Positions 5,892-64,000 of a stretch of DNA of 64,000 nucleotides are shown here, piece after piece. The notes under the pieces were generated by a model. It saw only the letters and a list, made by a program, of their open reading frames with translations. It was not told the DNA's origin and searched no databases. Every line of letters starts with the position of its first letter. The first letter of the stretch is position 1. A program made the position numbers and the translations under genes. The DNA is taken from assembly GCA_964016885.1 (NCBI GenBank), contig OZ024740.1, positions 178,374,001 to 178,438,000 on the forward strand. Direction: 5' to 3'. The stretch comes from Eledone cirrhosa. Lineage: Eukaryota.

Positions 5892-8213
5892 ATGGAAAAA
5901 CACTACCTGGATATGTCACTCAAAAACATACCAACCCAAGGTAGAAAGGAATATTTATTGAGTATGATTCAAAAAACTAATGAATTCATTCGACGTGTCA
6001 GGTGGAAAACGCTCCACTATGATAGAAGCCGTATGAACTCAACATTAGAAAGTGGTGTAAACAACAAATTCGGTTTTAGGACTTGTAAAAACCCACCCAC
6101 CAACCCACTATTAGATGCATTTGAGCAGGACCTTATGAACTTAATCCTTAAAATTAAATTCAAAGGACGCAGCACCAACAGCAAATTACAGAAAGATATA
6201 AAAAAACTACTGGACGACCTTAAAAACACCAAAGGAATTGTAGTAAAAGCGGACAAAACATCAAACCTGTACACTATGGATTGCACTACATACAACAACT
6301 TCATTCGAAAAGAATTACATAAAAAATATAGAAAAACGAATGAAGTAACTCTTAAGCACATCAATGATGAGGCATGCGAAATAGTGAAAAATCTCGGAAT
6401 CGAAGATAGGACAGGACCACTCTTACCGGCGGTACCCACCTTCAATCTTAAGGACCATAAGGTAAACTTTGATAATGACCCTAAAATTAGATTAATCTGC
6501 CCCTCTAAATCAGATATAGGTAAAATAAGCAAATATATCTTAGATAGAATCATCCCCCAAATTAAGGCTAAGGTTAACATTAAACTCTGGGGAAAGACCC
6601 AAGAAGCAATAAGATGGTTTAATAGCATTAGCAATAAGAATAAATCTAAGTTTATCCAGTTTGATATCGATGAATATTACTCATCGATATCTCCTGAAAC
6701 TTTGAATAGAGCCATTAAGTTTGCTAAGGATAACTCTGACCTTACAAACGATGAAATTAAGATTATATTAGAAGCTAGGAAAACTATAGTCAAATTTGAG
6801 AACAGTTATTGGGTACGTAAAGATAGACCCTCTAACTTTGACATAACAATGGGCTCTAACGATTCGGCGGAAATAACTGATATTGTGGGGTTATTTATCG
6901 CCTTTAGACTCCAGGAAAAATTCAGCAATCTCCACGGCGGAATATACTGCGACGATGTTCTCCTCCTAGTTAAAATCCTAAATAACCAAAAACTAGAAAA
7001 ACTACGCAAAGATATAAGAAAACTACTACTCGAAATAGGACTAACTATAACATATGAATACAACCTTAAAGTAGTTAACTTCCTGGATGTCACACTCAAT
7101 TTAAACTCTGGTTTTATTAAACCGTTTCATAAATTGAATGAAAATCTCAAATACGTAAATGTTGGGTCTAACCACCCCATCTCTATAATTAAATCTATCC
7201 CTAAAAATATTTCCCTTAGAATCTCGGGTCTATCTTCTAACATACAAGTATTTAAGGAACACGCCGAGTACTACGATAACGCCCTTAGTAAAGCAGGCTA
7301 CCTCAACAAAATAGAGTATATAGATGGGAACAATCAAAACACCCAAAATAAATCCCACATAGGTAGATATAATAACACAACACCAAACCACACTTACTAC
7401 CATAGTATGCACACCAGTAAACCAACAAACAAAACTAATAGAAAGCGATGCAAAGAGTACTTATGGTATAACCCCGAATACAATAGTTCCATTAGTACAA
7501 ATTTACCAGTACTCTTCTTTAAAATAATTAAGAGACATTTTCCTACATCACACACATACCACAAAATCCTAAACCCTACCACTATAAGACTGTCATACTC
7601 TACAGTGTTAAACCTTGAACAACACATAAAAAAGATCAATACTAGAAGGTTAAACGAAAACACTAAGAACTTAAGTACAAAGAACACAAAAACAACAGTA
7701 TACAATACACTACAGAACATAAATAAACCACACCTAAGTTCGTCCGCAATACTACTCCAGAGAAAACCCAACGTACACAACTGTAACTGCACCTATCCTG
7801 ACAACTGCCCCCTCGGCAATAACTGCCTGGAATAAAATATTATTTATAAGTGTACCATTAAATCCGGAGGCAACGAGTGGTATTACGTGGGATCAACGGT
7901 AACATCGTTTAAATCTCGATTATATAGGCATTCTTACTCAATAAAACACCAGAGCCAAAGAAATGTAACAACTTTAGCAGAAAAAGCTTGGACGCTCTGG
8001 GATAGCGATCAAAAGTTTACCCTAAAATGGGAGAAATTAGCTAAAACCCAAAGCTTTTCCAGGAGCCAAAATTTCTGCAAATTGTGTAATCTTGAGATTT
8101 ATTACATAATCACACACAAGAAGAAATTGCTGAATAACAGAATTGAACGAACATTATTCTGCCGTCACAGAACTAAAACACTTTTTTCCCACTACAAGCC
8201 GAATATTACATAA
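5892..8213 (+). pseudogene. PLE polyprotein (RT + GIY-YIG endonuclease) with one in-frame stop
   Basis: KADKT, KDHK, FIQFDIDEYYSSI, FDITMGS, GGIYCDD (GxYRDD in sister copies), FLDVTL, WYNP, CNC..CPL..C, YVGST..FK.R..H, CKLC. ORFs 5892..7835 and 7887..8213 are in the same frame, separated by a single TAA. Confidence 0.92.
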
Positions 8214-10087: not shown

Positions 10088-13000
10088 AATATAAATTAAA
10101 ATAATGAGAGAATGTTACATAATATAACGTTCCATATATTGGTTTTTCACTATGGTGTCTTGGTTGCATCAGTTGTCAGCCATAATCAAGCAGTATTCAT
10201 CTGTCGAGGCTGCATTGTGTGAGATCTGCCTATGGGTAACAAGATGGCTGCCAAAGGACATATTTACCTTCCTAATTAGAGAGTGGTTTCAGGGGAAGTA
10301 ACTCCTCGAGAGATTAGAAATTGTGGGTAGTTTATAGTTAAGTGCTAATTATAAATTTTTTTAATTGAGAGACAATGTAGGGGAGGTAACTTATAATTAT
10401 CTAAGTTAGTCATAGCTATTTAACTTATTAGCTACAAGTAAAAATGGGGCTAGATGACTAAGATGGGTCAAATATTCTATTGGCGAAGGAATTAGCCCTT
10501 CGATGTTGACAGCTTACCTCCGTTCTATCGTTAATCGGTAGAGGTCGTGATAGAGTTATGTAATATGCTTCTGTAATACAGAGATCACAAGATTTTTTCG
10601 TCCATTGAACGGTTGGGCCCTAGCCACGATATCCCATTTTAGTGAGTGTTGAACGTTGTTTAATTTAATGGGTCTCCGAAGGAAAAAGAGTGCGCGTTAT
10701 AGCGTACCTTAAAAAGGGTTAGAGGTAGACCCGATATAAGAGCTGGTATTCGAAGCAGTTTTAACCGTGCACCTATAGACTATGTTGGGTGTCAAGCAGT
10801 GTCCATTTAATGGGCATGCATTAGGGTAACGGCAGTTGCAGTTGCTTCTGCGGTTAGTGAGAGTAAGGTAGTTTAACCTAAGCGGTAGGTCAGTGCTAGA
10901 AGGATTAGATGGTGGAGCTGTGCTACTAGAGTAATTATTGGTGTAGTGGCGTGGTGTATTTGATAGAGGTGGTGGTACCGCGGTGTGGGAGTTTTACTGT
11001 TTTAGTTTTTGATGGTTACTGAATGCGATGTGGCTAGCTAGATTAGGTGTTGTGGAGAATGAGATTTTAATGTTATTTTAAAGAGTTTGTAATATCTATG
11101 GTTGGAGGAAAGTTTTAGATAGGATAGAGAAGAAGCGTTTAGGGATATTAGTGGCTAGATTAGATGAGAATGGGGGGGGGGGTTAAGCCAGGTGATATTT
11201 CTAGGTCTATTCCTTCTATGGGTTCTAGTGGAGTTGGTAGGGGCCTTCCTAGGGTTATTATTACCTGAGGATTTGTTATTTGTCATCCCATTTCTCATTC
11301 CTATTCTAGGGTTGATTTTTAGTTTGCTACTTGGAGTGGGGAGCAGGCCGCTGCCACCATTAAACTTCCCTGTATAGGTGCTGTTACTGCTAAAATTCCG
11401 GCGAATCTGGCTATATTCTAAGGTATTTCTAGTTCTAGTGTTAAGTTTATTATGGTGAATTGCTGTGTTATGGCATTTAGGTATGTAATAAATTGATTGT
11501 TCATAACCAGATTCAGAAAGAGCCTTATTATAATATTGTGCATGGTTTATAAATATCTCCTCATTTGCTGATAGCATTGAGATCCTATACGAGATAGAGT
11601 TGATTACTGTTCTGATGACTGCCGGTGAGTGGTTAGAGTGTGGGCTAATATATGTGAGTATTTCACCTGGTTTATGATAAGGGTAATATAGGTTATTGTT
11701 GAGATCCAGGGTGACGTCTAGGAAGTTTACTACTTTATGGTTCGGCTCGATGGTGATAGAGAGACCGTTATTTTTAAAGAATCTATGTAATTGTTTTTTT
11801 AGCAAATCAATGCCCCGATTAGTGCAATTGTGGACTGCAAGTAGGGCGTCGTCCCTGTATATTCCGCCTTGCAAGGGTTGGATTTCGGCTCTGATGTTAT
11901 GTAATAGGTAAATTCCAACTAAATCGGTGATTTGCGCATAGTCACTTGAGCCCATCGTGATGTCAGAGTTGTCTGTCCTATCTTTTCTAGTCCAGAGTGC
12001 TCCGTTGAATTCAATGATAGTCTGCCTAGCCATAAGTATGATGTTAATCTCATTATTGGTTATGTCCGAGTTGGTGTTGGCTAGGGTTAATGCTTTGTTG
12101 AGCAGTTCCGGGGTTATTGACGCGTAATAGCTGTCGATGTCAAATTGGATGAACCTCATAGATTGCTTGGACCTTAGAGCGGAGAACAATCTAATGACTT
12201 GGCCGGTGTTGGACCATAACTTGTAGGTGATATCATCCCGTAGCCCAGGGATTATCCTATCAAGGATGTTCTTACTGATACGGCTCAGGTCGGATGTGGT
12301 TGGGCTTATAAGTCTAATAAATGGGTTCTCTATAAAGTTTGGCTTATGATCCTTGAGAGAGAAATCTTGCGGTTGTTGGTACATAAGGGTGGGTAAATAT
12401 ATCCAGATGCAAGTCCTTAACCAAAGCCTGGGCTTTTCGGTTAAGTATGTTTACACTGGAGGGTATAGTTTTTTATAGTTTTTATTAAGTTCTTTAAGAA
12501 GGAAAGAGTTGTAAGTTTCAGGAGTCATGGTGTATAGATTTTTAGTTTTGTCAGACATATCATATAAGAGGTGGCTATCTTTAAATTTTTGTTATAGCTG
12601 TTGCTAATTTAGTGAGGAAATTATTCTTGTGTCTATAATGCTTTTTGAATGTAATGCTCCTGATGAAGTTGAATATATCTTTCTCAAAAGGGTCCAGCAG
12701 CATGTTGTGTGGGGGTTTCTTGCAGGTGATAAATCCATATCTATTTGCTGTACTTCCCGCGTCAGCAGCAACCGCACGGTCAAAGTGGAACGCTTTCCAT
12801 CTTATTCTTCGGATGAAAGAGTTGACACTCTGTATTAGGAGTTTGAGGTATGTCTTCCTGTCCGGGATAGGTGTGGACTTAAGTGAGATTCTGAGTTCCT
12901 GCTTCCTCAACAAGGTGACTTCTAACAGTAAATAGCTCAACTACAGGAGCTCAAGTATACACAGTTCAAGAGTAACCAATCTTAAAGAGAGAGATGGAGA

Positions 13001-21492: not shown

Positions 21493-21593
<101 letters not shown>

Positions 21594-22019
21594 CACTATC
21601 CCATCGCTGCCGCCACCACTCCTTCATTGCTACCACCACTATTCCCCTGTTAACTTGAGAGAGAAAGGGGAAGGTGGCGGTATCACTAGACAAGGGAGAG
21701 GCTAGCAAAAGATATAAATAGATTGACTTAGTGACCTGACCACCGGCCAAACGTCAACATCAACAACTATGGGACTGCTGGCTCACCCCTTCCTCACCAA
21801 CAATATAAAAAGCCCCGGCACCACCACCGACATAGCCAACAACAATAACAGCCAACTACAACAAAAAGTATATTATATTATTGTAATGCACTGGGTGATT
21901 GCTGGCCTTGTGCCTGGAGTGGAGACAATTATTAATAATTTCATTCTTAAGCCACGCAATGCTCACATTAAGGAACCACTCATGATAATAACAATTTAAA
22001 AAAAAACAACAAAAAGAAA

Positions 22020-25000
22020 ACCCCGTGACCAAGAAATACCGGGATGGCGGCCGGCGGGGAATAGCCATGTCTCTAGGGGAGAACGACCCCTCTAGTCTTG
22101 GTTGACTCTCGTTCTAGAAGTGGTAACACGAAATGATTACCCCTTGGCGGATAAGGATAAAACGCGACAAAATAAAGTAAATGTCTAATGATAAAATCTC
22201 ATACCGGATCGGGCGTCACCCGGGTAAAAAAGGGCCGCGTCCCTCAGAGAGGAACCAGACTGGGGTCGAAAAATCAGCAAATGGTTCAAACCTTCCCATC
22301 ACTTCGGAGCTGGAGACCTCCCATAACCGGAATACTCCTACTGTTGGCCCTCCATGCTCACCACCAAGAAATCCAAAGAAAAAGAGAGAAAAATGGTCAA
22401 GGGAAGATAATAAAGAAGTCCTTGAGGCTTTCTACACTGCCATGTACTACCCATCAAATACATCGAATACAGAACAGACATATATCAACTGGAAAAAGAA
22501 ACATCCCGAAAACAGAGGTTATATTGACAATAACAAACTAGCCAATATACGAAGAAATATTGTAAGAAAAAAGTTACTAACTGATATAGAAATTGATCAG
22601 ATCAAGCTATTAGCACAAAGTCAGCGAAGGGAAAATGAAACATGTGTCAGTGAAAACGAGGTAAACTGTAACACTTCGAATCCCAGGGTTGGGGTGGAAT
22701 CACTGGCAACAGAACAAATTAAAGAAAGGATCGAAAAAGTGGAGGGAGTGCATGCTCAGGATGAAACTCCAAATGAAAATAATGAGATCGTAAATGATAA
22801 AGAAATGAATGAGAATGAACTTGCCAACTTGAAGGATGAAATTATGATCGAATGGATGAAAATGAAAGAATCTGACATGGGGAAACGAGACACCCTCCCT
22901 AAGATCCAGAACTCCAAACAGAACCAAAAGATAATACACAAGACTAACATAATTCTCAAAAACATTATCATCACAAACAAACTAAACATTACTGATTTAA
23001 ATCATCTCTATTATGCATCGGCTAAAGTCACCACTCACTTATGTGGAGTGAAGATGAAAAAACAAAGGAATTCCCACAAGAAATCTACTTGGCAAGAGAA
23101 CATCAATCGCCAAATAAACCTTCTCCGATCTGACATAGAAATTTTAACAAACTATAAAGTAGGTGAACATGTTAAACAAACTAAACTTAGAAAATTGAAA
23201 AGAAAGTACAGTATAAAATCAACAAGTGACATAGACATGCTGATAGAAATAATCAAGCAAAAAGTGTCGGCCAAAGCTGCTCGTATAAGGCGCTTTGAAA
23301 AACGATCTAGATTCTATAAGGACAATAATATGTTCAAAAACAACCAAAGAAACTTCTACAGAAAAATTGGTAAGTCAACAATAACTGCTAAATCAATACC
23401 ACCCAAGGAGGAAGTGCAAGAATTCTGGGAAAAGACCTGGGCCGAAGAAAAAGTTCATAACATACATGCCCCATGGATAGACAGACAAATGAAAGATACA
23501 GCTCACCTTGATGAACAAATATGGGAAAATATAACAGTTGAACAGTTGCGCTTGGCTCTAAGAAAAACCAGCAAATGGAAATCCCCAGGAAAAGACAAAA
23601 TACAAAACTCAGAGTCTCATGAGCTGTTAGCCCAACTTTACAATGAAATAGTTAAGGAGCCAGAAAAGATACCATCGTGGCTAGTTAACGGCATTACATT
23701 CCTGCTTCCGAAGAATGATGAGACAAACAAACCCAAAAATTACAGACCGATAACTTGCTTGACCACAATGTATAAAATTTTAACATCAGTCCTAACTGAA
23801 TACACATATGACCACCTGATAACAAATGACCTATTTCCCATTGAGCAGAAAGGGTGTAAACGAGGCTCATATGGCTGTAAGGATCAGCTTCTGGTTAACA
23901 AAATGATACTGGAAGATTGTCATAATAGACACAAAATCTATCGATTGCTTGGATAGATTATAAAAAAGCATTCGATAGTTTGCCACACAGTTGGATTGAA
24001 AAATGTTTAGAGATTTTCAAAATATCCCCCGTTGTCAGGAGGTTTTTGTCATTCAGTATGAAGACATGGAGAACGACACTCCTTTTGAATAGTGAAACAA
24101 AATCACTGGAAGCTGGAGAAGTTAATATTAATTGTGGAATTTTTCAGGGTGACTCTTTATCACCGCTTTTATTCTGCATCGCACTTATACCATTAAGTAA
24201 AATGCTCAATGAAACAAAACATGGATATAAAGTCTATGACAAAACCATTAATCACCTGTTCTACATGGATGACCTGAAACTACTTGCAAAAAATGATAAA
24301 CAATTGCAAGGGCTATTATCCACTGTGGAGCAGTTCAGTGATGACATTAAAATGGAGTTTGGACTAGATAAATGCGCCAAAGCAACGTTCACCAGAGGAA
24401 AGCTGCTGAAGAGTTCAGACATTAATCTTGATCGGGGGAACGTGATAAGAGAACTTGATCAAGAAAAAACTTACAAATATCTAGGTGTTTGTGAAGGAGA
24501 CGGAATCAAGCACTCGACAATGAGGGAAAGGATAAGGAAGGAATGTTACCGCAGAGTAAGAGCAATCTTAAGAACGGAATTGAATGCAAGGAATAGGATC
24601 GATGCCATAAAACGCTTGCCATACCAGTAGTAACCTACAGTTACAATGTCATCAACTGGTCAAGCACAGAGATCCGTAGGCTCGATACAAAAATTCGAAA
24701 ATTCTTAACCATGCACAGAATGCATCACCCTAAGGCAGATATAGATAGAATATATCTACCTAGGAAAGAAGGAGGACGTGGGTTAATCCAGTTAGACATT
24801 GCGTTGAAAACTGCGACAATTGGATTATCTACATATCTAAGGGAATCACGTGATTGGATGATCAAACTCGTTTTGAAACACGAAAGCATCAAAAGATCAT
24901 ATTCCATTACAAAAGATGCACAACGATACAGTAATGGACTACAAATTTCAGAAGTCCCATTTACTGCTGAAATGGAAAACACAGAAAAAGCAAAGCAGGT

Positions 25001-25954
25001 AAAAGTAACTGCAAAGAAAGAACTGCTACAGAAACTGGCTAAGAAATGGCAAGAAAAGCCTCTGTATGGAAAATACCCAGAGCGAGCTAACAATCCTGAT
25101 GTTGACAAAACTTTAACCCATCAGTGGTTGGCATCCTCTGGACTGAAATCGGAGACTGAAGGACTGATTATATCCGCACAAGATCAGTGTCTGCCAACAA
25201 AAAATTACCAAGCCAACATAATAAAAAATGGGTGCAGCCCATTATGCCGTGTATGTAAAAAGCAACCAGAGACCATTGACCATATAATTTCAATGTGCAG
25301 TCCTATAGCTCCAACCCAATACCTAAACAGGCATGACAGAGCTGCACAATACATACATTGGATAATGTGTAAGCATTTTGACCTGCCCCATCAAAAGAAT
25401 TGGTGGGAGCATCAACCACCTCCCATACTTGAAAAAGATCACATCTCAATCCTGTGGAACTTTAGCATCCAAACAGACCGAAAAATAGATGCAAATAGAC
25501 CTGATATAATATTGAAGGACTTTAAAAAGAGGGTATGCCTGTTAATTGATATGTCCGTTCCAATAGACAAGAATGTATCTATAAAAACATTTGAAAAATT
25601 GAGCAAGTATAAGGACCTGGAGATAGAAATTGGAAAAATGTGGAAATTGAGAACTAAAACAATACCAGTGGTTGTAGGCGCTCTGGGAATGATACCTAAG
25701 GGGTCTATTGATTACTTATCGCAAATCCCAGGAAACCCGCGTATAGGAGAAATACAAAAGGTAGTACTAATGGGAACTGCCCATATACTAAGGAAGATTC
25801 TGTCAATATAAGTACATCACAAGTCTAAACACTAAAGATGCATGTGTGAGTATGTATGTTCTTTCTTGAACATGGCGAACCTTGTTGTCTCTTGAGGTCA
25901 CTGGTTGTGACTTGGTGATAACTCGTATGAACATAAAGCAAGATAAATGCAACT

Positions 25955-25955
<1 letters not shown>
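22020..25955 (+). mobile_element. Dong/R4-clade non-LTR retrotransposon, family 1 (RT + restriction-like endonuclease), frameshifted
   Basis: ORFs 22181..23956, 23980..24630 and 24711..25811: N-terminal KWSREDN..V...Y motif, WKSPG.D, NYRPITCL, EQKGC, FQGDSLSP, HLFYMDD, CRVC..ETIDHIISMC, RHD, NRPD..D, K..KY.DL. Ends in (AAT)n at 25956-26045. Confidence 0.92.
22181..25811 (+). pseudogene. Dong/R4 polyprotein with two frameshifts and a short deletion
   Basis: Colinear with the intact 27751..31143 ORF. Frameshifts near 23935 and 24610, and a few residues missing after KSPGKDKIQN. Confidence 0.88.
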
Positions 25956-26045
<90 letters not shown>

Positions 26046-26211
26046 GGGAAGAAGACGCACGAGGTGACGGAGGTCATGAAATCGCTCCCGTAAGTTTTGA
26101 ATTTTTAACATATTTAAATCATTTGTGAAATAACAACTCTTAGTACAAATGCTACGTAAAGCACCCGGCTTGAGCCCCCAAAAAATTCGGACCCAAAATA
26201 TATTGTTATAA

Positions 26212-27181
26212 GGCTCAAATATTCAAATATTCAACTTTGTATTGTACACTGTATATCCAAAAAAAAATGGCTATAAATGGAAGAAGAAGAACCCCCCCCC
26301 TCCCCTCCTCTGGCTACACTATATAGGACAGCTAAACTCACCAACACCAGAAACTAGATACACCACCCACCCCATCATCTGTGTACACTAAACACAACAG
26401 CATTTTCACCTTCACCGCCACCGCTCACTACGGCCATCATTACCACCACTATCCCATCACCGCCGCCACCACCCCTTGACTCCTTCACTGCTGCTGCCAC
26501 CGCTACAGCACCATCACTACAGTAATACGGCTCAAATATTCAAATATTCAACTTTGTATTGTACACTGTATATCCAAAAAAAAATAAAATGGCTATAAAT
26601 GGAAGAAGAAGAACCCCCCCCCCTCCTCTCCTCTGGCTACACTATATAGGACAGCGAAACTCACCAACACCAGAAACTAGATACACCACCCACCCCATCA
26701 TCTGTGTACACTAAACACAACAGCATTTTCACCTTCACCGCCACCGCTCACTACGGCCATCATTACCACCACTATCCCATCACCGCCGCCACCACCCCTT
26801 GACTCCTTCACTGCTGCTGCCACCGCTACAGCACCATCACTACAGTAATACGGCTCAAATATTCAAATATTCAACTTTGTATTGTACACTGTATATCCAA
26901 AAAAAAATAAATAAAATGGCTATAAATGGAAGAAGAAGAACCCCCCCCCCCTCCTCTCCTCTGGCTACACTATATAGGACAGCGAAACTCACCAACACCA
27001 GAAACTAGATACACCACCCACCCCATCATCTGTGTACACTAAACACAACAGCATTTTCACCTTCACCGCCACCGCTCACTACGGCCATCATTACCACCAC
27101 TATCCTATCACCGCCGCCACCACCCCCTGACTCCTTCACTGCTGCTGCCACCGCTACAGCACCATCACTACAGTAATACGG
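26212..27181 (+). repeat. Three tandem copies of a ~320-bp unit
   Basis: GGCTCAAATATTCAAATATTCAACTTTG begins at 26212, 26529 and 26852. Units differ mainly in A and C run lengths. Confidence 0.95.
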
Positions 27182-27619
27182 TCGCATCACCGCCACCACT
27201 GCCTCGGTACCGACATCACCACCACCACTGTCTCAGTATCGCCAACGCCGCCAGTCTCTGCTGGCTACCACTTCCACATTATAGAATTCCTACTACTAAC
27301 AAAGAGGAAGGCATCAAAATATATAGATAGACTCAAAAGAAAAAAGAAAAAACAAACAACAAAAGCAGCACAGCAACAACAGTAAAAAACGAGAAAAACA
27401 GAGAAAAACAAAAACAAAAAAAGAAACCCCAAAAACGTAAAGAAAATAAGAATGAAGAGAGAAGCAGGCGGACGGACAGAGAAGAGGGGGGAAAAAGTAA
27501 AACTTAAAAAACAAAAACTAAGTCAGACATTCGAATACTACATTACAATGAAACTTATGCTTATTCATTTTTGGGGCCCTTTCTGCCCGTGTGTTTGTTT
27601 GTTTATGTGTGTCCGTATA

Positions 27620-30600
27620 CAGCGTGGTGATAATGCCACACAAGGGCCAAGTGGGATGGCGGATCCACAGATGGCTATGTAAACATACATTCGCCAATCC
27701 TCGATAAGAGTGTTTAAATATCGAACATAAACAGTTCGAATAACGGTGAAATGGAGACTAGAACGTCATGTGACAGACTCTCACCCAACAGGTGCCCCCT
27801 GGCTCAGCAGCAGGAACCTGACTGTCAACCAAATACTGCTGATGTTGGAGGAAGAAGAAGAAGGAAAGGGGCCAGAACCAACTGGACGAAAGAATTGAAT
27901 AGAACTGTTATGCAATGCTACCTGAAAAGTAACCCCAAGGAGAGGGGCTACAGGAGACGGATGCATAACATCTGGAACGAGATTGGTTTATTTAAATTAG
28001 ATGAACAAAAATTGGCCGGGCAGGCTCGGGTAATAAGAACTAATGGGTGGATAAGCGAGCTGGAACTGGAGGAACTGAGCAGAGAGAATGGCTTGGAGAT
28101 GGCGGGTGTAGTATGCCAGACAAGCGAGCCGGCGGGAAATGAAGGTGAGGAGGTCCTGAGAACGGAGGAACCACCCGAAGCAGACAATGATCTGAATACT
28201 GAGATAAATAATACCTGGAACAGAGATACGGCCACTGAGGAGATGAATGCTGACGGGCTAGGACAAGATTCGGTTGACATCCTAAATTTAGTGGTAGATG
28301 AGTTGAACAATGATAGTGGGAGACCTATGAACCTAAGATTTGTAGACAGGAAAAAGTTAAAAGAAACAACAGCTAAGGTAAACAAAGTCATCCCATACCT
28401 TGAGGCGAGGAGTCTTCACCAGTGCAACAATATCCTCAAAGCAACAGCAAATACGGTGAGGAAACTACTTGGTATAAAAGCGAGAGGAAACAACAGACAA
28501 GAAAGAGCAGAGCCGTGGTGGAGGAAGCGACTGAGTGGGCAAATCGGGGAAATGAGAAATGACATAGGAAAGCTTGAGTCACTACTGAATGGGACACTAA
28601 AAAACATAGGCACTAAAAATAGACTGGAAATAAAATACAAAACTAGGAGTAAAAAGCTAAATATTATCATAGAGGAATTGAAGCAACGCATTGTAGCAAA
28701 GAGTGCCAAAATCAGGCGATACGAGAACAGAGTCAGTCAGTATAAACAGAACCGCATGTTCGACAACAACCAGAAGATGCTGTTTGGACAGCTTGAGGGG
28801 AAAGAAAGAGGCAACGACTTGATCCCTGGGGCGGAACAAGCTAAAACATTCTGGAGAGGAATATGGGAGCAGGATGTTAGACACAATGCCCAGGCAGGGT
28901 GGATTGAGACAGTACAGAGGGAGATCGGTGAGCAGGCACAGCAACAGACTGATTTGAGTATCACAGTTGAAACTCTTAAGGGGCAAGCCAAAAAACTAAC
29001 CAACTGGAAATCACCAGGCCCAGATGGTGTGCAGGGGTATTGGATTAAACATTTAACATCCCTCCACCCGAAGCTGACGGCCATGTTCAATGACTGCTTG
29101 GTGTCGGGTGAGGTGCCAGAGTGGTTGACAAAAGGTACCACAGTTCTGATAATGAAAGACCGAATCAAGGGTAATGATGTTACCAACTATAGACCTATCA
29201 CATGTCTGCCCGTAATGTGGAAACTGTTGACGAGCATTGTGTCTGAGGAAATCTACCATCACCTCCACACAAACAACTTGTTGCCGGACGAACAGAAAGG
29301 ATGCCGAAAGAAGTCACGTGGTACAAAGGACCAGTTGCTTATTGATAAGATGGTAATGGGGAATTGCAGGAGGAGACACACTGATCTTGCCATGGGATGG
29401 ATAGACTACAGAAAGGCATTTGACATGGTGCCTCATTCCTGGATCACCAAAAGCCTGGAGATCTTCAGGGTGGCAGATAACATCAGACAGTTGCTGGGCA
29501 GGAGTATGGGGTCCTGGGAGACAGAGTTGACATCAACTGGAGTATCCTTGGGAAGCGTGAAGATCAAGAGAGGTATCTTCCAGGGAGATAGCCTGTCCCC
29601 TCTGTTGTTTGTCCTTGCCCTGATGCCCTTGACCATTATGCTGCGAAAAGTGAGAGCAGGATACAAGTTGGGAAGGGGAGAGCTTACCATCAATCACCTC
29701 CTCTTCATGGACGATCTTAAGCTCTTCGGGAAAAGTGAGAAGGAGTTGGATGTGCTTGTTGACACTGTCCGTATTTTCAGCAGTGATATATGTATGCAGT
29801 TTGGTATTGGTAAATGTGGAGTCATTGTGATGAGGAGGGGTAGGTTGAGCAGAAGTAACGGGATCCAGATACCAACAGGTGAGATGATAAAGGAAATTGA
29901 CTCTGAGGAAGGATACAAGTATTTGGGCGTTCTGGAGGCTGATGGCATAAAGAACAAAAAAATGAAGGAATTGTTAAGAACTGAATACATTCGGAGAGTA
30001 AGGAGCGTATTGAAGTCACATCTGAACAGCAGAAATGCCATAAGCGCAGTAAATTCCAGAGCTGTGTCTATTATTAGGTACAGTGCGGGAATCCTGAGAT
30101 GGAATGTTGCTGAACAAAAAGAAATGGATAGGAAGACTAGGAAGCTATTGACTATCTACAACATGTTCCACAAGAGGAGTGATGTCGATAGACTCTACCT
30201 AAGGAGATCTGAGGGTGGAAGAGGTCTTATCAGCATAGAGGACTGTGTTCAGATGGAGAAAAACAACCTATACAAATACGTGACCTATAGTAAGGAGCCA
30301 ATGCTCAGAGCTGTACTGAAGGAGGGGACAGTAGGCCAGGGGATACCCAAGGAGGAAATAACATCAAGGAGGAAGAGCAGCCTTAAGGGAAAATCCCTTC
30401 ATAGTACCTTCTTTGAGAAAACTGAATTTAGAGATCCACAGACATGGAACTGGTTGAGAAGAGGAGACCTCAAAAAGGCTACAGAAGGAATGCTAATGGC
30501 TGCGCAGGAGCAGGCCCTCAAAACGAAGTGGTTGAAGCACCATATCTACAAGGAGGAGGCTAGCCCACTGTGCAGGATCTGTGGAGAGAGAGAGGAGACT

Positions 30601-31218
30601 GTGGCTCACATTGTGTCCGAGTGTAAACACCTAGCCCAGACCCACTATAAGGGCTGGAGACACGATGTGATGGGCAGGGTGATCCACTGGCACCTGTGCA
30701 AAGTAAACAATCTACCACATTCTGAGAAATGGTATGAGCATAGGCCAGAGGCGGTGATGGAGAACAGTCAGGTGAAGGTGCTGTGGGATTTTAGGATACA
30801 GACGGACAAAAAACTGGAACACAATAGACCTGACCTGGTGGTTGTGGACAAAGAAAAAAGATCGTGCCTGATTGTGGATGTGGCCTGCCCGTTCGACACG
30901 AGAGTGCAAGAGAAGGAGAGGGAGAAAATTAACCGATACCAGGACCTAAAGTGGGAGGTGAAAAGGATTTGGAACTGCCATGAAGTCAAAGTGATCCCGA
31001 TTGTCATAGGCGCACTGGGGACTATCTCCAAAGGTTTCCAGGGATGGTTAAAGAAAATCGGCCCCTTCACGCTTTTTGGAACGCTTCAAAAGGCATGCTT
31101 GCTTGGAACGGCAAGAACCCTCCGATACGTCCTGAATATCTGAGGCTGCAGGTAGTGGCTTGATATTCAATCCAACGGACTTTCCAGTTAACCAACATCA
31201 ATGACTGAGATTCAAGGA
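27620..31218 (+). mobile_element. Dong/R4-clade element, family 2, apparently intact
   Basis: Uninterrupted 1130-aa ORF, short 3' UTR, then (AAT)n at 31219-31265. The 5' boundary is approximate. Confidence 0.93.
27751..31143 (+). CDS. Dong/R4 retrotransposon polyprotein (N-terminal DNA-binding region, RT, CCHC knuckle, restriction-like endonuclease)
   Basis: RTNWTKELN..VMQCY, WKSPGPDG, YRPITCL, WIDYRKAFD, FQGDSLSPLLF, HLLFMDDLKL, CRIC..ETVAHIVSEC, RHD, RPDLVVVD...IVDVACP, EKINRYQDL. Confidence 0.96.
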   Translation: METRTSCDRLSPNRCPLAQQQEPDCQPNTADVGGRRRRKGARTNWTKELNRTVMQCYLKSNPKERGYRRRMHNIWNEIGLFKLDEQKLAGQARVIRTNGWISELELEELSRENGLEMAGVVCQTSEPAGNEGEEVLRTEEPPEADNDLNTEINNTWNRDTATEEMNADGLGQDSVDILNLVVDELNNDSGRPMNLRFVDRKKLKETTAKVNKVIPYLEARSLHQCNNILKATANTVRKLLGIKARGNNRQERAEPWWRKRLSGQIGEMRNDIGKLESLLNGTLKNIGTKNRLEIKYKTRSKKLNIIIEELKQRIVAKSAKIRRYENRVSQYKQNRMFDNNQKMLFGQLEGKERGNDLIPGAEQAKTFWRGIWEQDVRHNAQAGWIETVQREIGEQAQQQTDLSITVETLKGQAKKLTNWKSPGPDGVQGYWIKHLTSLHPKLTAMFNDCLVSGEVPEWLTKGTTVLIMKDRIKGNDVTNYRPITCLPVMWKLLTSIVSEEIYHHLHTNNLLPDEQKGCRKKSRGTKDQLLIDKMVMGNCRRRHTDLAMGWIDYRKAFDMVPHSWITKSLEIFRVADNIRQLLGRSMGSWETELTSTGVSLGSVKIKRGIFQGDSLSPLLFVLALMPLTIMLRKVRAGYKLGRGELTINHLLFMDDLKLFGKSEKELDVLVDTVRIFSSDICMQFGIGKCGVIVMRRGRLSRSNGIQIPTGEMIKEIDSEEGYKYLGVLEADGIKNKKMKELLRTEYIRRVRSVLKSHLNSRNAISAVNSRAVSIIRYSAGILRWNVAEQKEMDRKTRKLLTIYNMFHKRSDVDRLYLRRSEGGRGLISIEDCVQMEKNNLYKYVTYSKEPMLRAVLKEGTVGQGIPKEEITSRRKSSLKGKSLHSTFFEKTEFRDPQTWNWLRRGDLKKATEGMLMAAQEQALKTKWLKHHIYKEEASPLCRICGEREETVAHIVSECKHLAQTHYKGWRHDVMGRVIHWHLCKVNNLPHSEKWYEHRPEAVMENSQVKVLWDFRIQTDKKLEHNRPDLVVVDKEKRSCLIVDVACPFDTRVQEKEREKINRYQDLKWEVKRIWNCHEVKVIPIVIGALGTISKGFQGWLKKIGPFTLFGTLQKACLLGTARTLRYVLNI

Positions 31219-31229
31219 ATAACAATAAC

Positions 31230-31264
<35 letters not shown>

Positions 31265-31266
<2 letters not shown>

Positions 31267-31611
31267 TGGATGTGGCCTGCCCATTCGACACGAGAGTGCA
31301 AGAGAAGGAGAGGGAGACAATTAACCGATACCAGGACTTAAAGTGGGAGGTAAAAAGGATTTGGAACTGCCATGAAGTCAAAGTGATCCCGATTGTCATA
31401 GGCGCACTGGGGACTATCTCCAAAAGTTTCCAGGGATGGTTAAAGAAAATCGACCCCTTCACGCTTTTTGGAACGCTTCAAAAGGCATGCTTGCTGGGAA
31501 CAGCAAGAACCCTCCGATACGTCCTGAATATCTGAGGCTGCAGGTAGTGGCTTGATATTCATTCCAACGGACTTTCCAGTTAACTAACATCAATGACTGA
31601 GACTCAAGGAA
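31265..31611 (+). mobile_element. 5'-truncated Dong family 2 copy sitting in the (AAT)n tail of the intact copy
   Basis: Repeats about 30873-31218 with several substitutions (e.g. EKINR to ETINR, KGFQ to KSFQ) and has its own short AAT tail. Confidence 0.92.
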
Positions 31612-32268
31612 TAATAATATATTTTATTTTATATTGATGATGACATTCAGTTCTTTCAATACATTAATATTTGGGACTCACCAGACTTTAAATAATAAAA
31701 TATTTGTTTAAAACAAGGCTCGCACATTTTGTCGAAATCTGATCTGGTGGAGGCAGTAGTTCATGTGTCGCTTCACAGAAACATCTGTTCGATATATAAG
31801 ACGGGCATCTTGTAGACTTGTCGGACGTAGAGGGAAAAATGAATACTTCCAGTAGTTCAAAATACAATTAAACCATGCTTCTATGTTGATATGGCCAGTA
31901 ACATTCAATAATTGTTTTCATTTTCCACCAAGGAACATTATTAGAAGCATTGTATGAATAAAAAACAATAGATGTTTTGTTACCGAGACATTTTTCTTCA
32001 TTTATATATGTACATCATACACTAACAAACGTGTATCGACGCCAAAAAAGTATTTTTACCATTGCTTTGAATATACAACCCATGAATACACACAGAAGAA
32101 TTCAAAGTCTAGCTGACAAACATACACACACATATACATATACCTACACACAACACACACACACACACACACACATACACACATACACACACACACGCAC
32201 ACACATATATATATATACATGTGTATATATATATATGTATATATATGTATATATATATATGTATACAA

Positions 32269-44570: not shown

Positions 44571-46200
44571 AAAAGTACTCATAAATATACGCATATACAC
44601 TGGCACATAAAATTAGCTCTACAGGCAGAAATGCAGATAGGTAAGAGGTACTCACATAACCATAGTGGCCGTACTTCAGGTTGAGGAAGGGTGGAGGTGG
44701 GGTGGGAAGGAGGTAGAGGGGCTAAAAGGGGGAAGTCGTTTTTAGCCATCGGGCATTAATACTGGCTTAAGGTATTTGAAAGTTGCAAAGTTCTTGTGCA
44801 TGCAGTTCGGGCAGTGTTCAGAGAGTTTGTTCAGTAGCAGGCCCTTGGCGAATACAATTGTATAGCTCTCTGAGATACAAAGGTGGCAGCCCTTGTGTGC
44901 TCCGTTGTAAGAGCGCGCTTTCTGGAGTATTTTCCGTTTAAGCGTGAAGAGGGTGGAGTTCCTTTTGAAGTCCCAAACATTGGAGGCGAGTGTTGTCTGG
45001 TTTGATTCGTCCGGTCTTCTGAAGGAGTGGGTATGGGCATACCAACGGGTCTTAAAGTTATTGGAAGTCATGCCGATCTAAGTCTTTTTGTTATTGCAAT
45101 CATCGGTGCCTGAGATGACGTCGCATTTGTATACGATATCATTTGTCAAGCATTTGTTTTCAAGTGGGCAGGCTTCCTTATTTAGGCAATTACACAAGGC
45201 CCCAGTCCGGGATTGAGTTCAGAGGTGGTTGGCTTATTTAATTTTTTAGAATTGGGGTTGGCTATATTCCTAGCTAGCTTAGGTGTTGTGGAGTAGGAGA
45301 GTCTTATTGTCTTCTTATTAAATATGGTGTAGTACATATGTTGTATGGGGAAGTGTTTTTTCAGCAAAGTGAAGAAAATCCTAGCTATCGGTGTAGAGAC
45401 CTCTCTATTGAAGGGAGGGTTGTACCAGTTAATTTGCCTATGCCTATTCCTCCTCTGCAAACTTGCGGTGGTTTCCAAGTAGGTTATCTTTTCTTTAAAT
45501 CCGCTGCGGGCGAGGGCGTCATTGTAGTAGGTGGCAGAGGCGTTAAATATATCTTCATTGGCAGAGAGGCCAGAGATTCTAATAGAGACGCTTTTTACTA
45601 AGTTATCAGTGATGTTTTGGGGGTGGTTAGAATTAACATTAATATATCTAAGGGACTCGTTAGGTTTGTGGTACGGGTAATAGAGAGAAGTATCTAGGTC
45701 GTGAGTGACATCTAAGAAGTTGGCCCTAGTCATATTAGATTCTATAGTTATACTAAATCCTAGATTAGAGAAGAACGAGCTTAAGTTTCTCCGAAACGCA
45801 TCGGTGGTTCTGGGGTTAACCTTGTGCAGGGCGAAGAGGCCGTCGTCTCGGTATAAACCTCCGGTTAGGCCGGTAAAGAGGTTCTTCATGTGATGTAAAA
45901 TGTACAAGCCCACAAGGTCGCTAATTTCAGCCGAGTCACTCGTTTCCATGCTGACGTCAAATGGGGTCTGAGAATTCTTGTTGATCCAGTAAGATTCATC
46001 GTGGTATAGAAAGGTCTTACGGGATAACAACTTGCTCAGCATCAGTAATGTTCTATCAACCAATGACCTCTACCCATCCCACTCCCTACTCTCTCCTACC
46101 ACATGAAGAGACCTATAAATACCATATGTAATTTTTGATACCCAGATTCCTGATGATTTCTAAAGAATGAAACAGTTCTAGTCCTGTTAGAATCTCATCT
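44570..46200 (-). mobile_element. 5'-truncated Naiad-like PLE (RT C-half + GIY-YIG) with an inverted pLTR piece at its 5' end
   Basis: 45182..46063 (FDVSM..SDSAE..DLVG, GGLYRDDGL, FLDV, WYNPPF), CNCLNKEACPLENKC, and 44742..45071 (FKTRW..H, CHLC). The hammerhead at 46144-46195 is on the opposite strand. Confidence 0.87.
46144..46195 (+). ncRNA. Hammerhead ribozyme motif
   Basis: AGATTC-CTGATGA-TTTC taaa GAAT-GAAA-CAG ttctagtc CTG-TT-A-GAATCT. Stem I AGATTC/GAATCT with one extra base. Confidence 0.7.
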
Positions 46201-57481: not shown

Positions 57482-59535
57482 AGAACTCAGGAAAAATTAT
57501 AGAAAAACAAATAATGCGTCACTTACCAACATCAACAACAAAACACACAGCATAGTGAATAGACTTAATATTGAAGATAGAACTGAACCTTTGGCATTGA
57601 AAATACCACACTTCAACCTGAAAGATCATAAATCTAACTTTAACTCTAATCCTTCTATAAGGCTTATATGCCCTTCCAAATCTGATATTGGAATAATTAG
57701 TAAAAAAACTTTTAGATAGAGTCATCCCACAACTAAGAAAACATGTTAATTTACCACTCTGGGAAAACACATCCCAGGTAATTAACTGGTTTAATAATAT
57801 TAGAAATAAATCCTCTGCTTCATTTCTACAATTTGATATAGATAATTATTATTCTTCTATATCACCTATACTCCTGAACAAAGCCTTGATATTTGCTAAA
57901 AATAGATCTAACTTAACTTTGGATGACATTAATATTATTACACATGCTAGACTAACACTATTGGAATTTCAGAATGAATACTGGACCAGAAACACATATA
58001 GTAATCTATTCGATATTACTATGGGCTCAAGCGATTCTGCCCAAATTACTGATCTTGTGGGCCTCTTTCTTATTTTTAACATAAATGCTTCTTTTCCCCA
58101 CCTTAAAGGTGGTTTATATCGTGACGACTGTCTTCTTCTTTCCAATAACCTTAGCCTCTCAGAGATAGAAAAAAATATAAAGCTTATTAGAACTTTCCTC
58201 AAAGACTATTATAGTCTAGATATTACATTTGAAAACACAAGTAAAGTAGTTAATTTCCTAGATATAACATTAGACTTATTTACGGGTATCTACCAACCTT
58301 ACCATAAACCCAACCAAAATTTACACTACATACACTCACAATCTAATCCCCCTAAATATATCCTTAAAAACCTTGCATATAATATATCACTTAGAATTTC
58401 TAACCTTTCGTCTAACCAAGATGTATTTGATAAAAATGCGACCTTTTATAACGAAGCTCTAGCTAGAAGTGGCCACAAAAATGGATTAGTATATATACCT
58501 TCTACCAATAACACTACAAACATACAACCTAATATTACCAACAAACACCAAATGAAACATACACACCTAAATGCCACTCACACTATACCCCAAAACACCA
58601 ACATAAAACCAAATTTCTCTAACTCTTCTAATATACAGTATAGTAACTCTCAAAAAACTACTCATCCTACAACTCTAATAAATGTTAATAATAAAACACC
58701 TAATAAACAAGCTAAAACACCTAAATCAATAATTCTAACTAAAAATGTGTGTGGTGAGGTCATTAACAATAATTTTCTTAATAATCATCAGGATGCATCC
58801 TATAAAAACAATAAACAACATCGAAACCGTAATAGACGAGTTACTTGGTACAATGCTCCATTTAATTTACAAATTAAGGATAATATACCTAAAAAATTCT
58901 TTAATATCCTAGATAAAAACTTCCCGCCAAACCACAAATACCATCAAATCTTAAATAGATCAACGGTTAAATTCTCCTACTCAACAACCAAAAACATAAA
59001 ACAAAATATAAGTGCCTATAATGCATATAAATGTAAAAAAAACATGAGTATACCAGCAGTACATCAAACTAACCATAATATCTCCTCAGATACAGGATTC
59101 ACGAAAAGTTGTAACTGTAGAAACAAGGCAAACTGTCCATTAAAAGGAAATTGCCTTGTTAATAACATAGTATATAAATGTAAAGTTAACACTAAGGACT
59201 CAATTTATTCATATATAGGAGCTATCTCTAACAAATTTAAGGTAAGATTTAATACCCACAAACATAGTTTTAAAAATGCCGCACTAGCTAATACAACATC
59301 TCTAGCTGAAATAATAAATAGTTATAGAAAGAGGAATATAGAATATGACCTGACCTGGAGTGTGCTCAAAAGGGCCACCCCTTATCAAAATAGTAGAAAT
59401 GAATGTAAATTATGTTCCCAGGAACTTTTTGAAATAATGAAATCTAAGGATATCCTATTAAATAAGCGACAGGAATTAATAATATCGTGTAATCATAAAC
59501 TGAGAAAAACCTTTAAATATTATAAACCTAATTAA
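57482..59535 (+). pseudogene. 5'-truncated PLE polyprotein (RT + GIY-YIG), one frameshift near 57705
   Basis: KDHK, RLICPSKSDIG, FDITMGS, GGLYRDD, FLDITLDL, WYNAPF, CNCRNKANCPLKGNC, YIGA..FK.RF..H, CKLC, CNH. Confidence 0.9.
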
Positions 59536-61047: not shown

Positions 61048-63208
61048 TGGGGTTCTTTTCTTTGTTTTTTGTGCCTCTCCTTTGTTCTGTCCTACGCCAT
61101 CTTGTTTTTGTGTGTGTGTTGTGTGGTTACTTTGCGCATGTGTTACATCCGGGTGTCTGTGTGTGTTTATATTCGTTTATTTATTTGTTTATTTACATGT
61201 TACTGGTTGGTAGTTTGTTCTATGTGCGTGTGTGTTTTCATTTTGTCCTTAATTGTAAATTGTGATGTTGCTGTTCCACTCATGTTTTCTATTTAATTTT
61301 GGTTGTAATTCATTTATGTTTATTGCCTCTGTGATTTGTCTAAACATTGCGCCTTTTCTGTGTCTAGATTCTATTTTTATTTCTATGTTCTCTAATTTAC
61401 CCTTATGTTCTATTTTAGCATGTTGGTAGAGTACAGATGATTCTTTACTATCTTGAAGACCTCGCCAGTGTTCATTTATCCGTTCCCCTATACTACGAGC
61501 TGTCTCACCTATGTCCACTATATTTTTATATCTACATTCTCCTTCAGTACATCTTATGCTATATACTACATTTCTAGTTTTACAGTTAATATGAGGGCTT
61601 AATTTACAGATTATACATTTCTTATCTATACAGGGAGGTCTTTGAAAAGGGTATGTCTTGCTAATAAGTGTTTTTATGGAGGTACCTGGTCTTTCTACTA
61701 TCTTAATATTGAGTTTATGTTTATCTAGGGCCCTTCTAAATTTGTAAGCTAATTCACGTCTAGGGGTTGTATCGATGAACATTACAATCTGGTATTTATT
61801 GCTATCATACCATGAGTTTATTCTATTAGCCTTATTCCTAGTTCTTTCTATTCTATTCCAAAATTTGCTCCTATACAAGGGGCAGGTCCCATTTGTGTCA
61901 TTATTTACCATTTTTTTCTATTTGGTTCTGGCTCCTCTATACACTCTGATTTTATCTCTCTGATTGTAACCAGAGAACCGCATACGGTGGATGAAGTGTT
62001 GTATGTGTCTCTCTAGTTCTTCGGGGTTGCACATGCAGGACACGTTTCTCAGCACCCATACCAAATCCGCAATCAGTATGTTGATTTTGGTATTGTTCGA
62101 AACAGCTGAGTTTCGGTGGATCAGATATTTGGAAGTCATGGGTTTGGCATAATGGGAATGGAGGATTTGTTTTTTGTTATTAATGGTATTTAACCAGAGC
62201 TCTGTGTCTAGTACAGGTAATCGATGGTTGGGGTGTTTGCTAGGGTAGTCTATAGTAACTCTAATACTCTGGTGGATGGAGTTAGCTATTTGCTGGATGC
62301 TTTCCATTGTGTTTTTCTCTAATTCCTGACTGTTCTCTAGTGGGGTGTTTTAACTACGATGTTTATATCATCAACGTAGCGGTAGTATATTATCAGGGTT
62401 AAGGGATCTTCTAATTGTTCTTTAAGTTTAAGTTTAAGTCTACTGTCCCACCATACCATGAATAAGTTAGCTATGTCGCCTGCAATGCTAACACCAATGG
62501 CTGCTCCTTCCTCTTGGGCATATGTTTTTCCATTAAATTTGAACATATGTTCGTTAAGGGTTAATTTTATGCTGGCCCCCACCGCATGTGCAATCATTTT
62601 CTTTAGTTCATCGTGGTTTTCGGGGGTCCGTATGACTCTGGTCCACCCGTTCCGTCTCTCTGTGTGGGTTTTCTTGGCCATTGAGGTAATGGTAGGTGGT
62701 CTGCCTCTTGCTGGTCTTGTAGGGCACAGGTTGCTAAGGTCATATGTGTCTAGATAATTATTACTATAGGTAAGTTTAAGTAGGAGTCCCAGCTCACTGG
62801 TATCAATCCCACGGAACTCAACATTGCTCTCACTCATCATTTCTACACAATTCTCCACAGCAAAATCCACGTCAATAGATGGATACAGGGCCACAACATC
62901 CATACTACCTATTATGCAGTTTGTTAAGTCCCTAGATCGGTTACTCTCGCCGATTCTGCTGAGGAGGTCCTCCGTGCTGTCACATACATCTGGGGACATT
63001 TCAGTGATGGGCGTATGATCAGAGAGAGGAAGTAGGACAGTCTGTAGTTACTAGCAATGTTAGCTCCACAGACTGGCCGTGTTGGTGGTCCCGTGACAGG
63101 GTCACTGCTCGTTTTATTGTCTTTTCGAATCCCATACAACGCTGGCACGTCATTGTTCCAGGCCTGGAAGTTGTTGGCAGTCCTCTTGTTGGGCTGCATT
63201 ATATTTGT

Positions 63209-63754: not shown

Positions 63755-64000
63755 AACCTGTCTTATGGTCGGATCGTTGGCGACTAAACTGGCAACCCGA
63801 CCAAGCTTTCTTGGTGAGGAGGGTGACTTTGGACATCCTGAAGGACTAAAAACAAAACCTGTCAAAGGGCAAAGGAGCTCTTAAAAGTCAATGGCCATCC
63901 AGAATCACCGTGAGAGATGACCCCTTAGCCTTTGTCAAGGCAGAATTCTAGGAGAAGGAAAACTCTGATATAACACCTGCAACTCTGATGGTATCCAATG
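63755..64000 (+). mobile_element. Probable 5' UTR of an RTE-clade LINE running off the window end
   Basis: CTAGGAGAAGGAAAACTCTGA..AA.ACC and GGCGACTAAA motifs resemble RTE 5' UTRs as I recall them. No ORF inside the window to confirm. Confidence 0.5.

What the first reader, a model, noticed from the sequence alone, without database searches (positions are those of the whole stretch)
22039..27680. Shared pseudoknot-like motif in the 5' UTRs of two divergent Dong/R4 families
Seen: the otherwise unalignable 5' UTRs both contain GGGATGGCGG (22041-22050; 27653-27662), followed 8-10 nt later by AT(A/G)GC(C/T)ATGT (22061-22070; 27671-27680), 70-110 nt before the ATG. The first motif sits in a hairpin whose stem differs but still pairs (CCGG/CCGG vs GTGG/CCAC), and its loop ATGGC can pair with the downstream GCCAT or GCTAT. 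Established: R2 and some other non-LTR elements carry 5' self-cleaving ribozymes or structured translation signals. Inference: a conserved H-type pseudoknot that does not obviously fit the HDV, twister or pistol consensus, so a candidate new 5'-processing or translation element.
Basis: partly seen in the sequence, partly recalled or inferred. Interest (0 to 1): 0.7.

Follow-up and report, generated by a model that had tools for sequence, protein, structure and literature searches.

The report
Portable knotted RNA leader of LINEs
The first element's motif is the front of a roughly 130-base leader shared by unrelated jumping genes and SINEs, whose base pairing is kept as its letters change; it is predicted to fold into several knots and likely stands in for a cap, marking or protecting the RNA's start and helping ribosomes load, while the match to the second element is probably chance.

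Summary
The letters are there, but the E1/E2 match is borderline (p 0.03-0.8) and the proposed pseudoknot fails in E1's homologues (35-46% paired). E1's motif is the 5' end of a larger domain (22021-22156). Its core is the conserved RTE 5'-UTR / Ceph-SINE domain of Kojima 2018, described there as sequence only. Across 38 copies from R4/Dong, APE-type LINEs and SINEs, two helices covary strongly (79 two-sided cells against 28 shuffled). A 5'-terminal pseudoknot is also supported, and a long-range one is compatible. In two other families of this genome the element's 5' end lies at the first base of this fold. In E1 the main 5' end lies 965 nt upstream, in a module shared with E2. E2 lacks the core. 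Best reading: a portable, predicted multi-pseudoknot leader acting as a cap substitute (end marking or protection, ribosome loading). Function is untested, and a new self-cleaving ribozyme is not excluded.

The parts
21493..21592 (+). (AAT)n target array upstream of E1
21593..25955 (+). E1: R4/Dong-type RLE element; this copy is 5'-truncated about 440 nt before the motif, with the ORF in three pieces (22181-23956, 24058-24630, 24711-25811)
22021..22156 (+). Whole predicted leader domain of E1 (5' extension + RTE/Ceph-type core + two hairpins)
   Evidence: colinear with L042, E3 and E4; E1 vs L042 score 64 against a maximum of 26 in 300 shuffles
22021..22066 (+).
   Evidence: 91% paired, 7 two-sided cells vs 1.8 shuffled, 13 rows; a2 alone
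22038..22102 (+). Predicted long-range pairing K: 22038-42(43) with the TTGGT loop 22098-22102
   Evidence: found by RNAalifold; 95% paired, one-sided changes only
22039..22054 (+).
   Evidence: its first three pairs hold in 38 of 39 cells; present in the E1 minimum-energy fold
22076..22115 (+). [quoted passage not shown]
   Evidence: S1 not above shuffles; Kojima 2018 supplement
22120..22156 (+). Hairpins c (22120-29) and d (22142-56) before the start codon
   Evidence: sequence; comparable hairpins in L042, L050, E3, E4 by eye; pairing not counted
25956..26045 (+). (TAA)n array between E1 and E2
26045..26380 (+). 5'-terminal module of E2, 76% identical to the 5' end of full-length E1 (right edge approximate); sets the main 5' end of both families
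26208..27181 (+). 323-bp unit in three copies inside the E2 5' UTR
27624..27739 (+).
   Evidence: fold z=-2.6 for 27620-27750; no covariance-model match
27751..31143 (+). E2 intact ORF, 1130 aa, RT + RLE
63905..63977 (+). Second, older copy of the core domain in this window
   Evidence: model R1, E=1e-7

Best explanation
E1's motif is the front of a ~130-nt leader domain shared with other LINE families and SINEs, which is predicted to fold into several pseudoknots and likely works as a cap substitute: its 5' knot would mark or shield the RNA's 5' end, and its core would help load ribosomes. Shown: homology across R4/Dong-type, APE-type and SINE elements; covariation of H1, S3, a2 and P0; 5' ends of families E3 and E4 at the first strand of the 5' knot; internal position in E1. 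Inferred: read-through RNA from microsatellite sites is trimmed by 5'-3' exonucleases to the knot, or starts there; the core recruits the translation machinery past many upstream AUGs; SINEs keep the core because ribosome docking would bring them to nascent LINE protein. E1 later captured a ~965-nt upstream module from or with E2. E2 lacks the core, and its short match to E1 is most likely chance or a match to a different hairpin.
For: H1+S3: 88.9% of 379 cells paired in 38 rows, 79 two-sided cells vs 27.7 shuffled, 0/500; slid controls 25-37%; RNAalifold recovers both helices unaided. Within E1, 22082/22113 vary together (39 A-U, 7 G-C, 5 other of 51; probably one event). PK1 91% paired. Carriers: E1, L042, L098 and E3 (R4-type ORFs); APE-type families L145 and L159 (Pfam Exo_endo_phos); E4 (APE-like ORF by eye, no Pfam hit); tRNA-headed SINEs L246 and L254. 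E4: conservation starts at the first C of P0 (21 of 26 anchored copies; best letter at most 62% at each of the 21 positions upstream; 6 of 32 loci had no anchor). E3: 4 of 6 copies have AAT repeats ending within about 8 nt of P0. Full-length E1 and E2 UTRs hold 15 and 12 upstream ATGs. For R2, a stable 5' double pseudoknot is proposed to act as a cap substitute (PMC11331408, abstract and Discussion), and HDV-like leaders are reported to support translation (PMC6765202, passages).
Against: No RNA data and no assay. The domain is dispensable: E2 (about 990 copies) lacks it despite 12 upstream ATGs, and the core was found in the UTR of only 2 of 51 outside loci searched (about 17 with 150 nt or more of UTR). 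Distance to the ORF varies from about 65 nt (E1) to over 300 nt. In E1, 16 of 27 unbiased copies end at -954 to -965 and 0 of 27 near the domain. The E1 junction cluster at P0 (18 of 32 listed loci) is matched by a microhomology cluster in a control window (10 of 21). K shows no two-sided change, S1 is not above shuffles, and a1 is as well paired as a2, so the fold may be two-state. My PK1 scan hit only 3 of 14 carriers. Single-sequence folds are not more stable than shuffles (z 0.1 to -0.8). Rows are related, and many were found with a pattern that fixes S3 and CTAG, so only the inner H1 pairs are free of that selection.
Confidence: 0.4

Rival explanations
1. The domain is a handle gripped by the element's own RT protein, like the R2 5' protein-binding RNA, and is kept by SINEs to be mobilised.
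For: Retained with covariation in non-coding SINEs; position is flexible; Kojima 2018 reports bipartite RTE derivatives that keep 5'-UTR parts; R2Bm protein binds a 5' RNA region (PMC11331408 Discussion).
Against: The same version is shared at about 80% between an RLE family (E3) and an APE-like family (E4) whose proteins are very distant. It does not explain why E3 and E4 5' ends fall at P0.
Confidence: 0.2
2. The long (Dong-type) form is a self-cleaving ribozyme of a new class that cuts 0-4 nt before P0; E1's young copies have partly silenced it by favouring the alternative a1 fold.
For: Compact multi-pseudoknot fold whose first strand coincides with E3 and E4 5' ends. B. mori Dong and Ascaris R4 cleave at their 5' ends with HDV-like ribozymes (PMC3774820 passages). 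Short E1 copies recur on the tree (10 changes, at least 5 forced) and lean to older branches (1 of 500 shuffles). The young letters at 22044 and 22067 strengthen the competing pseudoknot.
Against: Most E1 copies keep 965 nt upstream; SINE heads and about 190 nt of RTE leader lie upstream of the core; end offsets differ between families (0 to -4); the control window has a similar junction cluster; no known catalytic motif was recognised.
Confidence: 0.15
3. The conserved sequence is mainly an internal Pol II promoter or factor-binding DNA that starts transcription at P0; the RNA fold is secondary.
For: Explains fixed 5' ends in E3 and E4 and a minor E1 class; Kojima 2018 speculates about regulator binding; ATGGCGG resembles a YY1 site (recalled, not tested).
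Against: Many two-sided changes in H1 indicate selection on pairing, not letters. ATGGCGG is not kept in homologues. E4 begins with C, and only 4 of 26 junctions have a G before it.
Confidence: 0.12
4. The reader's H-type pseudoknot is a real element shared by E1 and E2, inherited when the two families exchanged 5' UTRs.
For: The families share a 5' module; the motif lies about 965-990 nt from the 5' end in both; a CCAAG also precedes both motifs; the X9 homologue of E2 keeps all five pairs.
Against: Similarity is borderline; it fails in E1's true homologues; E2's hairpin aligns better to L042's downstream hairpins (p=0.004 in 1 of 14 tests; not significant on 200-nt windows).
Confidence: 0.1

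Closest known systems
Conserved RTE 5'-UTR domain / 3' half of the Ceph-SINE domain (Kojima 2018, PMC5786205; main-text parts 2-4, supplement part 13 and passages read)
   Same: Same core sequence order (GGG, helix strand, AGCCTTGG..GGCA, helix strand, CTAG, purine-rich hairpin); reported mid-UTR in RTEs, in SINEs, in Ingi-3_AC and in R4-1_ADi.
   Different: In the parts read the paper gives no secondary structure or tested function. E1, L042, E3 and E4 carry a longer 5' extension (P0, AAATA, K, a2), and in E3 and E4 the domain is at the 5' terminus.
HDV-like ribozymes of R2, R4, Dong, RTE and L1Tc (PMC3774820 passages; PMC6765202 passages; PMC11331408 abstract and Discussion; Ruminski 2011 not held, known only through citations)
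   Same: Compact pseudoknotted leader of non-LTR RNAs; in E3 and E4 the 5' end coincides with the first helix; proposed roles in end protection and translation.
   Different: Strand order and loop sequence differ: the 3-bp stem's loop holds GG and pairs upstream, there is no CC-containing L3 pairing downstream and no C-A-A joiner; cleavage untested.
Type IV (HCV-like) IRES core (PMC13034579 passages)
   Same: Small hairpin with a UUGG(G/U)U loop, reminiscent of domain IIId (loop sequence recalled); pseudoknots upstream of an AUG.
   Different: Only two Gs are conserved and they can pair internally; no IIIe/IIIf arrangement; variable distance to the start codon.
Exoribonuclease-resistant RNAs (xrRNA) of viruses (recalled, no paper read)
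   Same: 5' strand locked by pseudoknots; 5' ends 0-4 nt before the fold.
   Different: No sequence or Rfam match; resistance not tested.
5'-end switching in LINEs (bioRxiv 10.1101/2022.11.04.512097, abstract only)
   Same: Exchangeable 5' UTR modules on a conserved body.
   Different: Here the exchange is between families with 30%-identical proteins (E1/E2) and between RLE and APE-like elements (E3/E4).

Membership tests
RTE 5'-UTR / Ceph 3'-half domain | Core sequence GGG-N8-..AGCCTTGG-N2-3-GGCA-N-CTAG followed by a purine-rich hairpin | tested here: met
   E1 22072-22143 aligns without gaps to APE-family and Ceph-like SINE copies and by eye to the paper's supplement alignments.
RTE 5'-UTR / Ceph 3'-half domain | Located in the 5' UTR of a LINE, not at the 3' end | tested here: met
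   E1: 965 nt after the 5' end and 65 nt before the ATG; 5'-terminal in E3 and E4.
RTE 5'-UTR / Ceph 3'-half domain | Presence in E2 | tested here: not met
   No match with paired columns in 26000-27800, filters off; none in L001 or L002.
HDV-like ribozyme | Strand order P1-P2-P3-L3-P3-P1-P1.1-P4-J4/2-P2 with a C-rich L3 and catalytic C in J4/2 | tested here: not met
   The covarying helices give another order; the loop is TTGG; no Rfam hit. My descriptor scan found nothing but also missed its intended controls, so it adds nothing.
HDV-like ribozyme | Self-cleavage at the element's 5' end | not testable with these tools
   Needs an assay; junction mapping is inconclusive.
Twister / pistol / hatchet / hammerhead / glmS | Match to the family covariance model on either strand | tested here: not met
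   0 matches at gathering score in the window; no ribozyme family at E<=5 in 7 carrier loci.
Type IV IRES | IIId loop with three conserved Gs | tested here: not met
   Two Gs are nearly invariant; the third position is mostly T.
Type IV IRES | 40S binding and cap-independent initiation | not testable with these tools
   No assay possible.
xrRNA | Halts Xrn1 a few nucleotides before the fold | not testable with these tools
   Junctions 0-4 nt before P0 are compatible but confounded by microhomology.
R4/Dong clade (host elements) | Single ORF with RT and C-terminal CCHC + restriction-like endonuclease; (TAA)n target | tested here: met
   motifs read from the translation; family features recalled.
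R4/Dong clade (host elements) | RT phylogeny with named R4 and Dong references | not tested

The most novel reading that the evidence does not exclude
The Dong-type long form is a new class of 5'-end-forming RNA, either a self-cleaving ribozyme or the first exonuclease-blocking leader of cellular retrotransposons, swapped between RLE and APE LINEs, with a truncated non-processing form exapted as a SINE body across animals.
Probability: 0.2. Interest if true: 0.85.

Novelty: new variant of a known kind. Interest (0 to 1): 0.52.

Why it matters
The RTE/Ceph domain has been known since 2018 as an unexplained conserved sequence in LINEs and SINEs from cnidarians to birds. A covariation-backed fold, and natural variants that place it at the 5' end, inside the UTR, or nowhere, make its function directly testable. 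How uncapped or AUG-rich LINE RNAs get a 5' end and get translated is an open question, and RTE UTRs are being tuned empirically for gene writing (PMC13708176, passages). No structure for this domain turned up in my searches. The library lacks most subscription papers and Ruminski 2011, and I read only part of the Kojima supplement.

Tried and rejected
Rfam: nothing relevant. HDV descriptor scan: 0 hits in 14 regions but also 0 in the two intended controls, so uninformative. Own-genome protein search returned only E2 copies. Phage-collection pattern hits (4, 24) looked like chance matches in the rows displayed and were dropped. Sequencing runs: no RNA holder listed. Laying contigs on E1 gave only fragments; on E2 one informative contig. 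A P0 cleavage hot spot in E1 was considered: 32 listed loci within 30 nt (list cut at contig C5, 15 matches unlisted) against 21 in a control window and 9 for E2, which is not discriminating. Upstream ORFs starting in the motif (MAAGGE*, MADPQMAM*) were rejected because the ATG is lost in older E1, L042, E3 and E4. A YY1-like site was rejected for the same reason. Profile HMMs of the 5' part and of the c/d part found no hit in E2. S1 is unproven. Rows dropped: alignment A3 used 17 of the 38 anchored rows plus the window's E1; A7 used 35 of 38 (one duplicate E1 copy and two spurious anchors left out) plus 3; the abundant L138-type family, whose first copy has lost the H1 5' strand, was not aligned; 2 of 48 rows were missing from the tree. 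Ruminski 2011 was not held.
Full report
The two elements. E1 (ORF from 22181, broken in this copy) and E2 (27751-31143, intact) are single-ORF RT/RLE elements lying in (AAT)n arrays, the anatomy of R4/Dong (family features recalled). Their N-terminal halves are 30% identical. The pattern has 1,287 matches in G000, 295 of them E1-type.

The UTRs are not unalignable. Full-length copies of both families start at the same sequence right after the AAT array and share about 340 nt at 76% identity. 17 of 25 E2 rows and 16 of 27 unbiased E1 copies begin there, about 950-990 nt before the motif, or more where the E2 UTR holds tandem repeats. The motif is therefore not at the main 5' end of either family, unlike the HDV-like ribozymes of B. 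mori Dong and Ascaris R4 (PMC3774820).

The E1/E2 match is weak. A 10-nt common word in 200 x 200 nt has p=0.027, and local alignments give p=0.06-0.84. Older E1 copies differ at 22044 and 22067. An E2 homologue in run X9 changes four of the ten letters. None of 81 outside R4-type loci has GGATGGCGG.

E1's real homologues. Metagenome locus L042, an R4-type element, is colinear with E1 22016-22140 (score 64 against at most 26 in 300 shuffles). A loose core pattern gave 81 matches in G000 against 1 in the control. These led to a third Dong-type family (E3), an APE-like family with the same long version (E4), several APE-type families and, in other records, Ceph-like SINEs. The core is the domain Kojima 2018 found in RTE 5' UTRs, Ceph-SINEs, Ingi-3_AC and R4-1_ADi; in the parts read the paper offers no structure and only speculates on function.

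Structure. H1 (22080-86/22109-15) and S3 (22095-97/22104-06) are 88.9% paired in 38 rows, with 79 two-sided cells against 27.7 shuffled and 25-37% pairing when slid (18-row version). RNAalifold finds both helices unaided. S3 and CTAG were partly fixed by the search pattern and rows are related, so the inner H1 pairs carry the weight. In the long version, P0 (22021-24/22056-59) crosses a2 (22053-55/22064-66): 91% paired, 7 two-sided cells against 1.8. A pairing K of 22038-43 with the S3 loop is 95% paired but shows only A/G-opposite-U changes; the same upstream word occurs in some APE families. S1 is not above shuffles. Single sequences fold no better than shuffles, and a strict PK1 scan hit 3 of 14 carriers.

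E2. A covariance model of the core finds E1, L042, L098, two SINE loci and a second copy at 63905, but not E2. E2's hairpin may correspond to the downstream hairpins of L042 (p=0.004 in one of 14 tests), but this is not significant on larger windows. E2's proximal UTR is structured (z=-2.6).

5' ends. E4 conservation starts at the first C of P0 (21 of 26 anchored copies). 4 of 6 E3 copies follow AAT repeats within about 8 nt of P0. Because flanks differ, something must set the RNA or cDNA end there; this is inference. In E1, 18 of 32 listed junctions near the motif fall 0-5 nt before P0 and recur across the tree. However, a control window shows a similar cluster (10 of 21) and 0 of 27 unbiased copies end there. 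In two APE families the core lies about 190 nt inside the element, and in SINEs it lies behind a tRNA head.

Mechanism. A leader that is 5'-terminal in some families, internal in others, kept in non-coding SINEs, shared between RLE and APE-like elements and absent from E2 fits a host-facing, replaceable module. I favour a cap substitute (0.40): the 5' knot marks or shields the end, and the core helps load ribosomes on UTRs with 12-15 upstream ATGs. This parallels what is proposed for R2's HDV-like fold. No step of function is shown; there are no RNA data.

Novelty. The sequence domain is known. The fold, the 5' extension and the RLE/APE and E1/E2 leader exchanges were not found in my seven paper searches. 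Earlier AI notes on this genome describe other pseudoknot modules near RTE UTRs and cite the same paper; they are unreviewed, I did not test them, and they are not support. Verdict: new variant of a known kind, interest 0.52.

Noticed in passing
window 26045-26380; L012, L028: E1 and E2 share a 76%-identical 5'-terminal module despite 30%-identical proteins, which points to 5' UTR capture; it starts with a small hairpin whose stem differs between families.
   Followed up: partly
L153/L208-L211/L220 (E3) and L213-L226, L311-L340 (E4): An RLE Dong-type family and an APE-like family of this genome share the same 5'-terminal leader at about 80% identity.
   Followed up: partly
L056:84-168; L054 about 110-190; L242 about 130-340: R4-type elements with tRNA-like heads directly after the microsatellite (ARAGORN confirms L056 only); L242 has a SINE-like head plus only the small 5' pseudoknot piece about 45 nt before its ORF.
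   Followed up: partly
L350, L351, L205, L353, L354 5' ends: Two APE-type families have an HDV-like-looking 3-bp stem with a 7-nt loop about 100 nt upstream of the domain; not confirmed by the descriptor scan.
   Followed up: no
   Followed up: partly
window 26208-27181 and 30873-31619: Tandem duplications inside the E2 5' UTR (3 x 323 bp) and of its 3' end (1.9 x 392 bp); E1 and E2 often lie about 5 kb apart in the same AAT arrays.
   Followed up: no
window 5892-7835, 11155-12384, 45182-46042, 58021-59535, 61249-62999: Several Penelope-like ORFs (RT-like and GIY-YIG-like motifs by eye; Pfam gave only one weak RT hit).
   Followed up: no
L139-L161 type loci: An abundant APE-type family carries two tandem copies of the core, the first with its 5' helix strand replaced by a TA repeat.
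   Followed up: no
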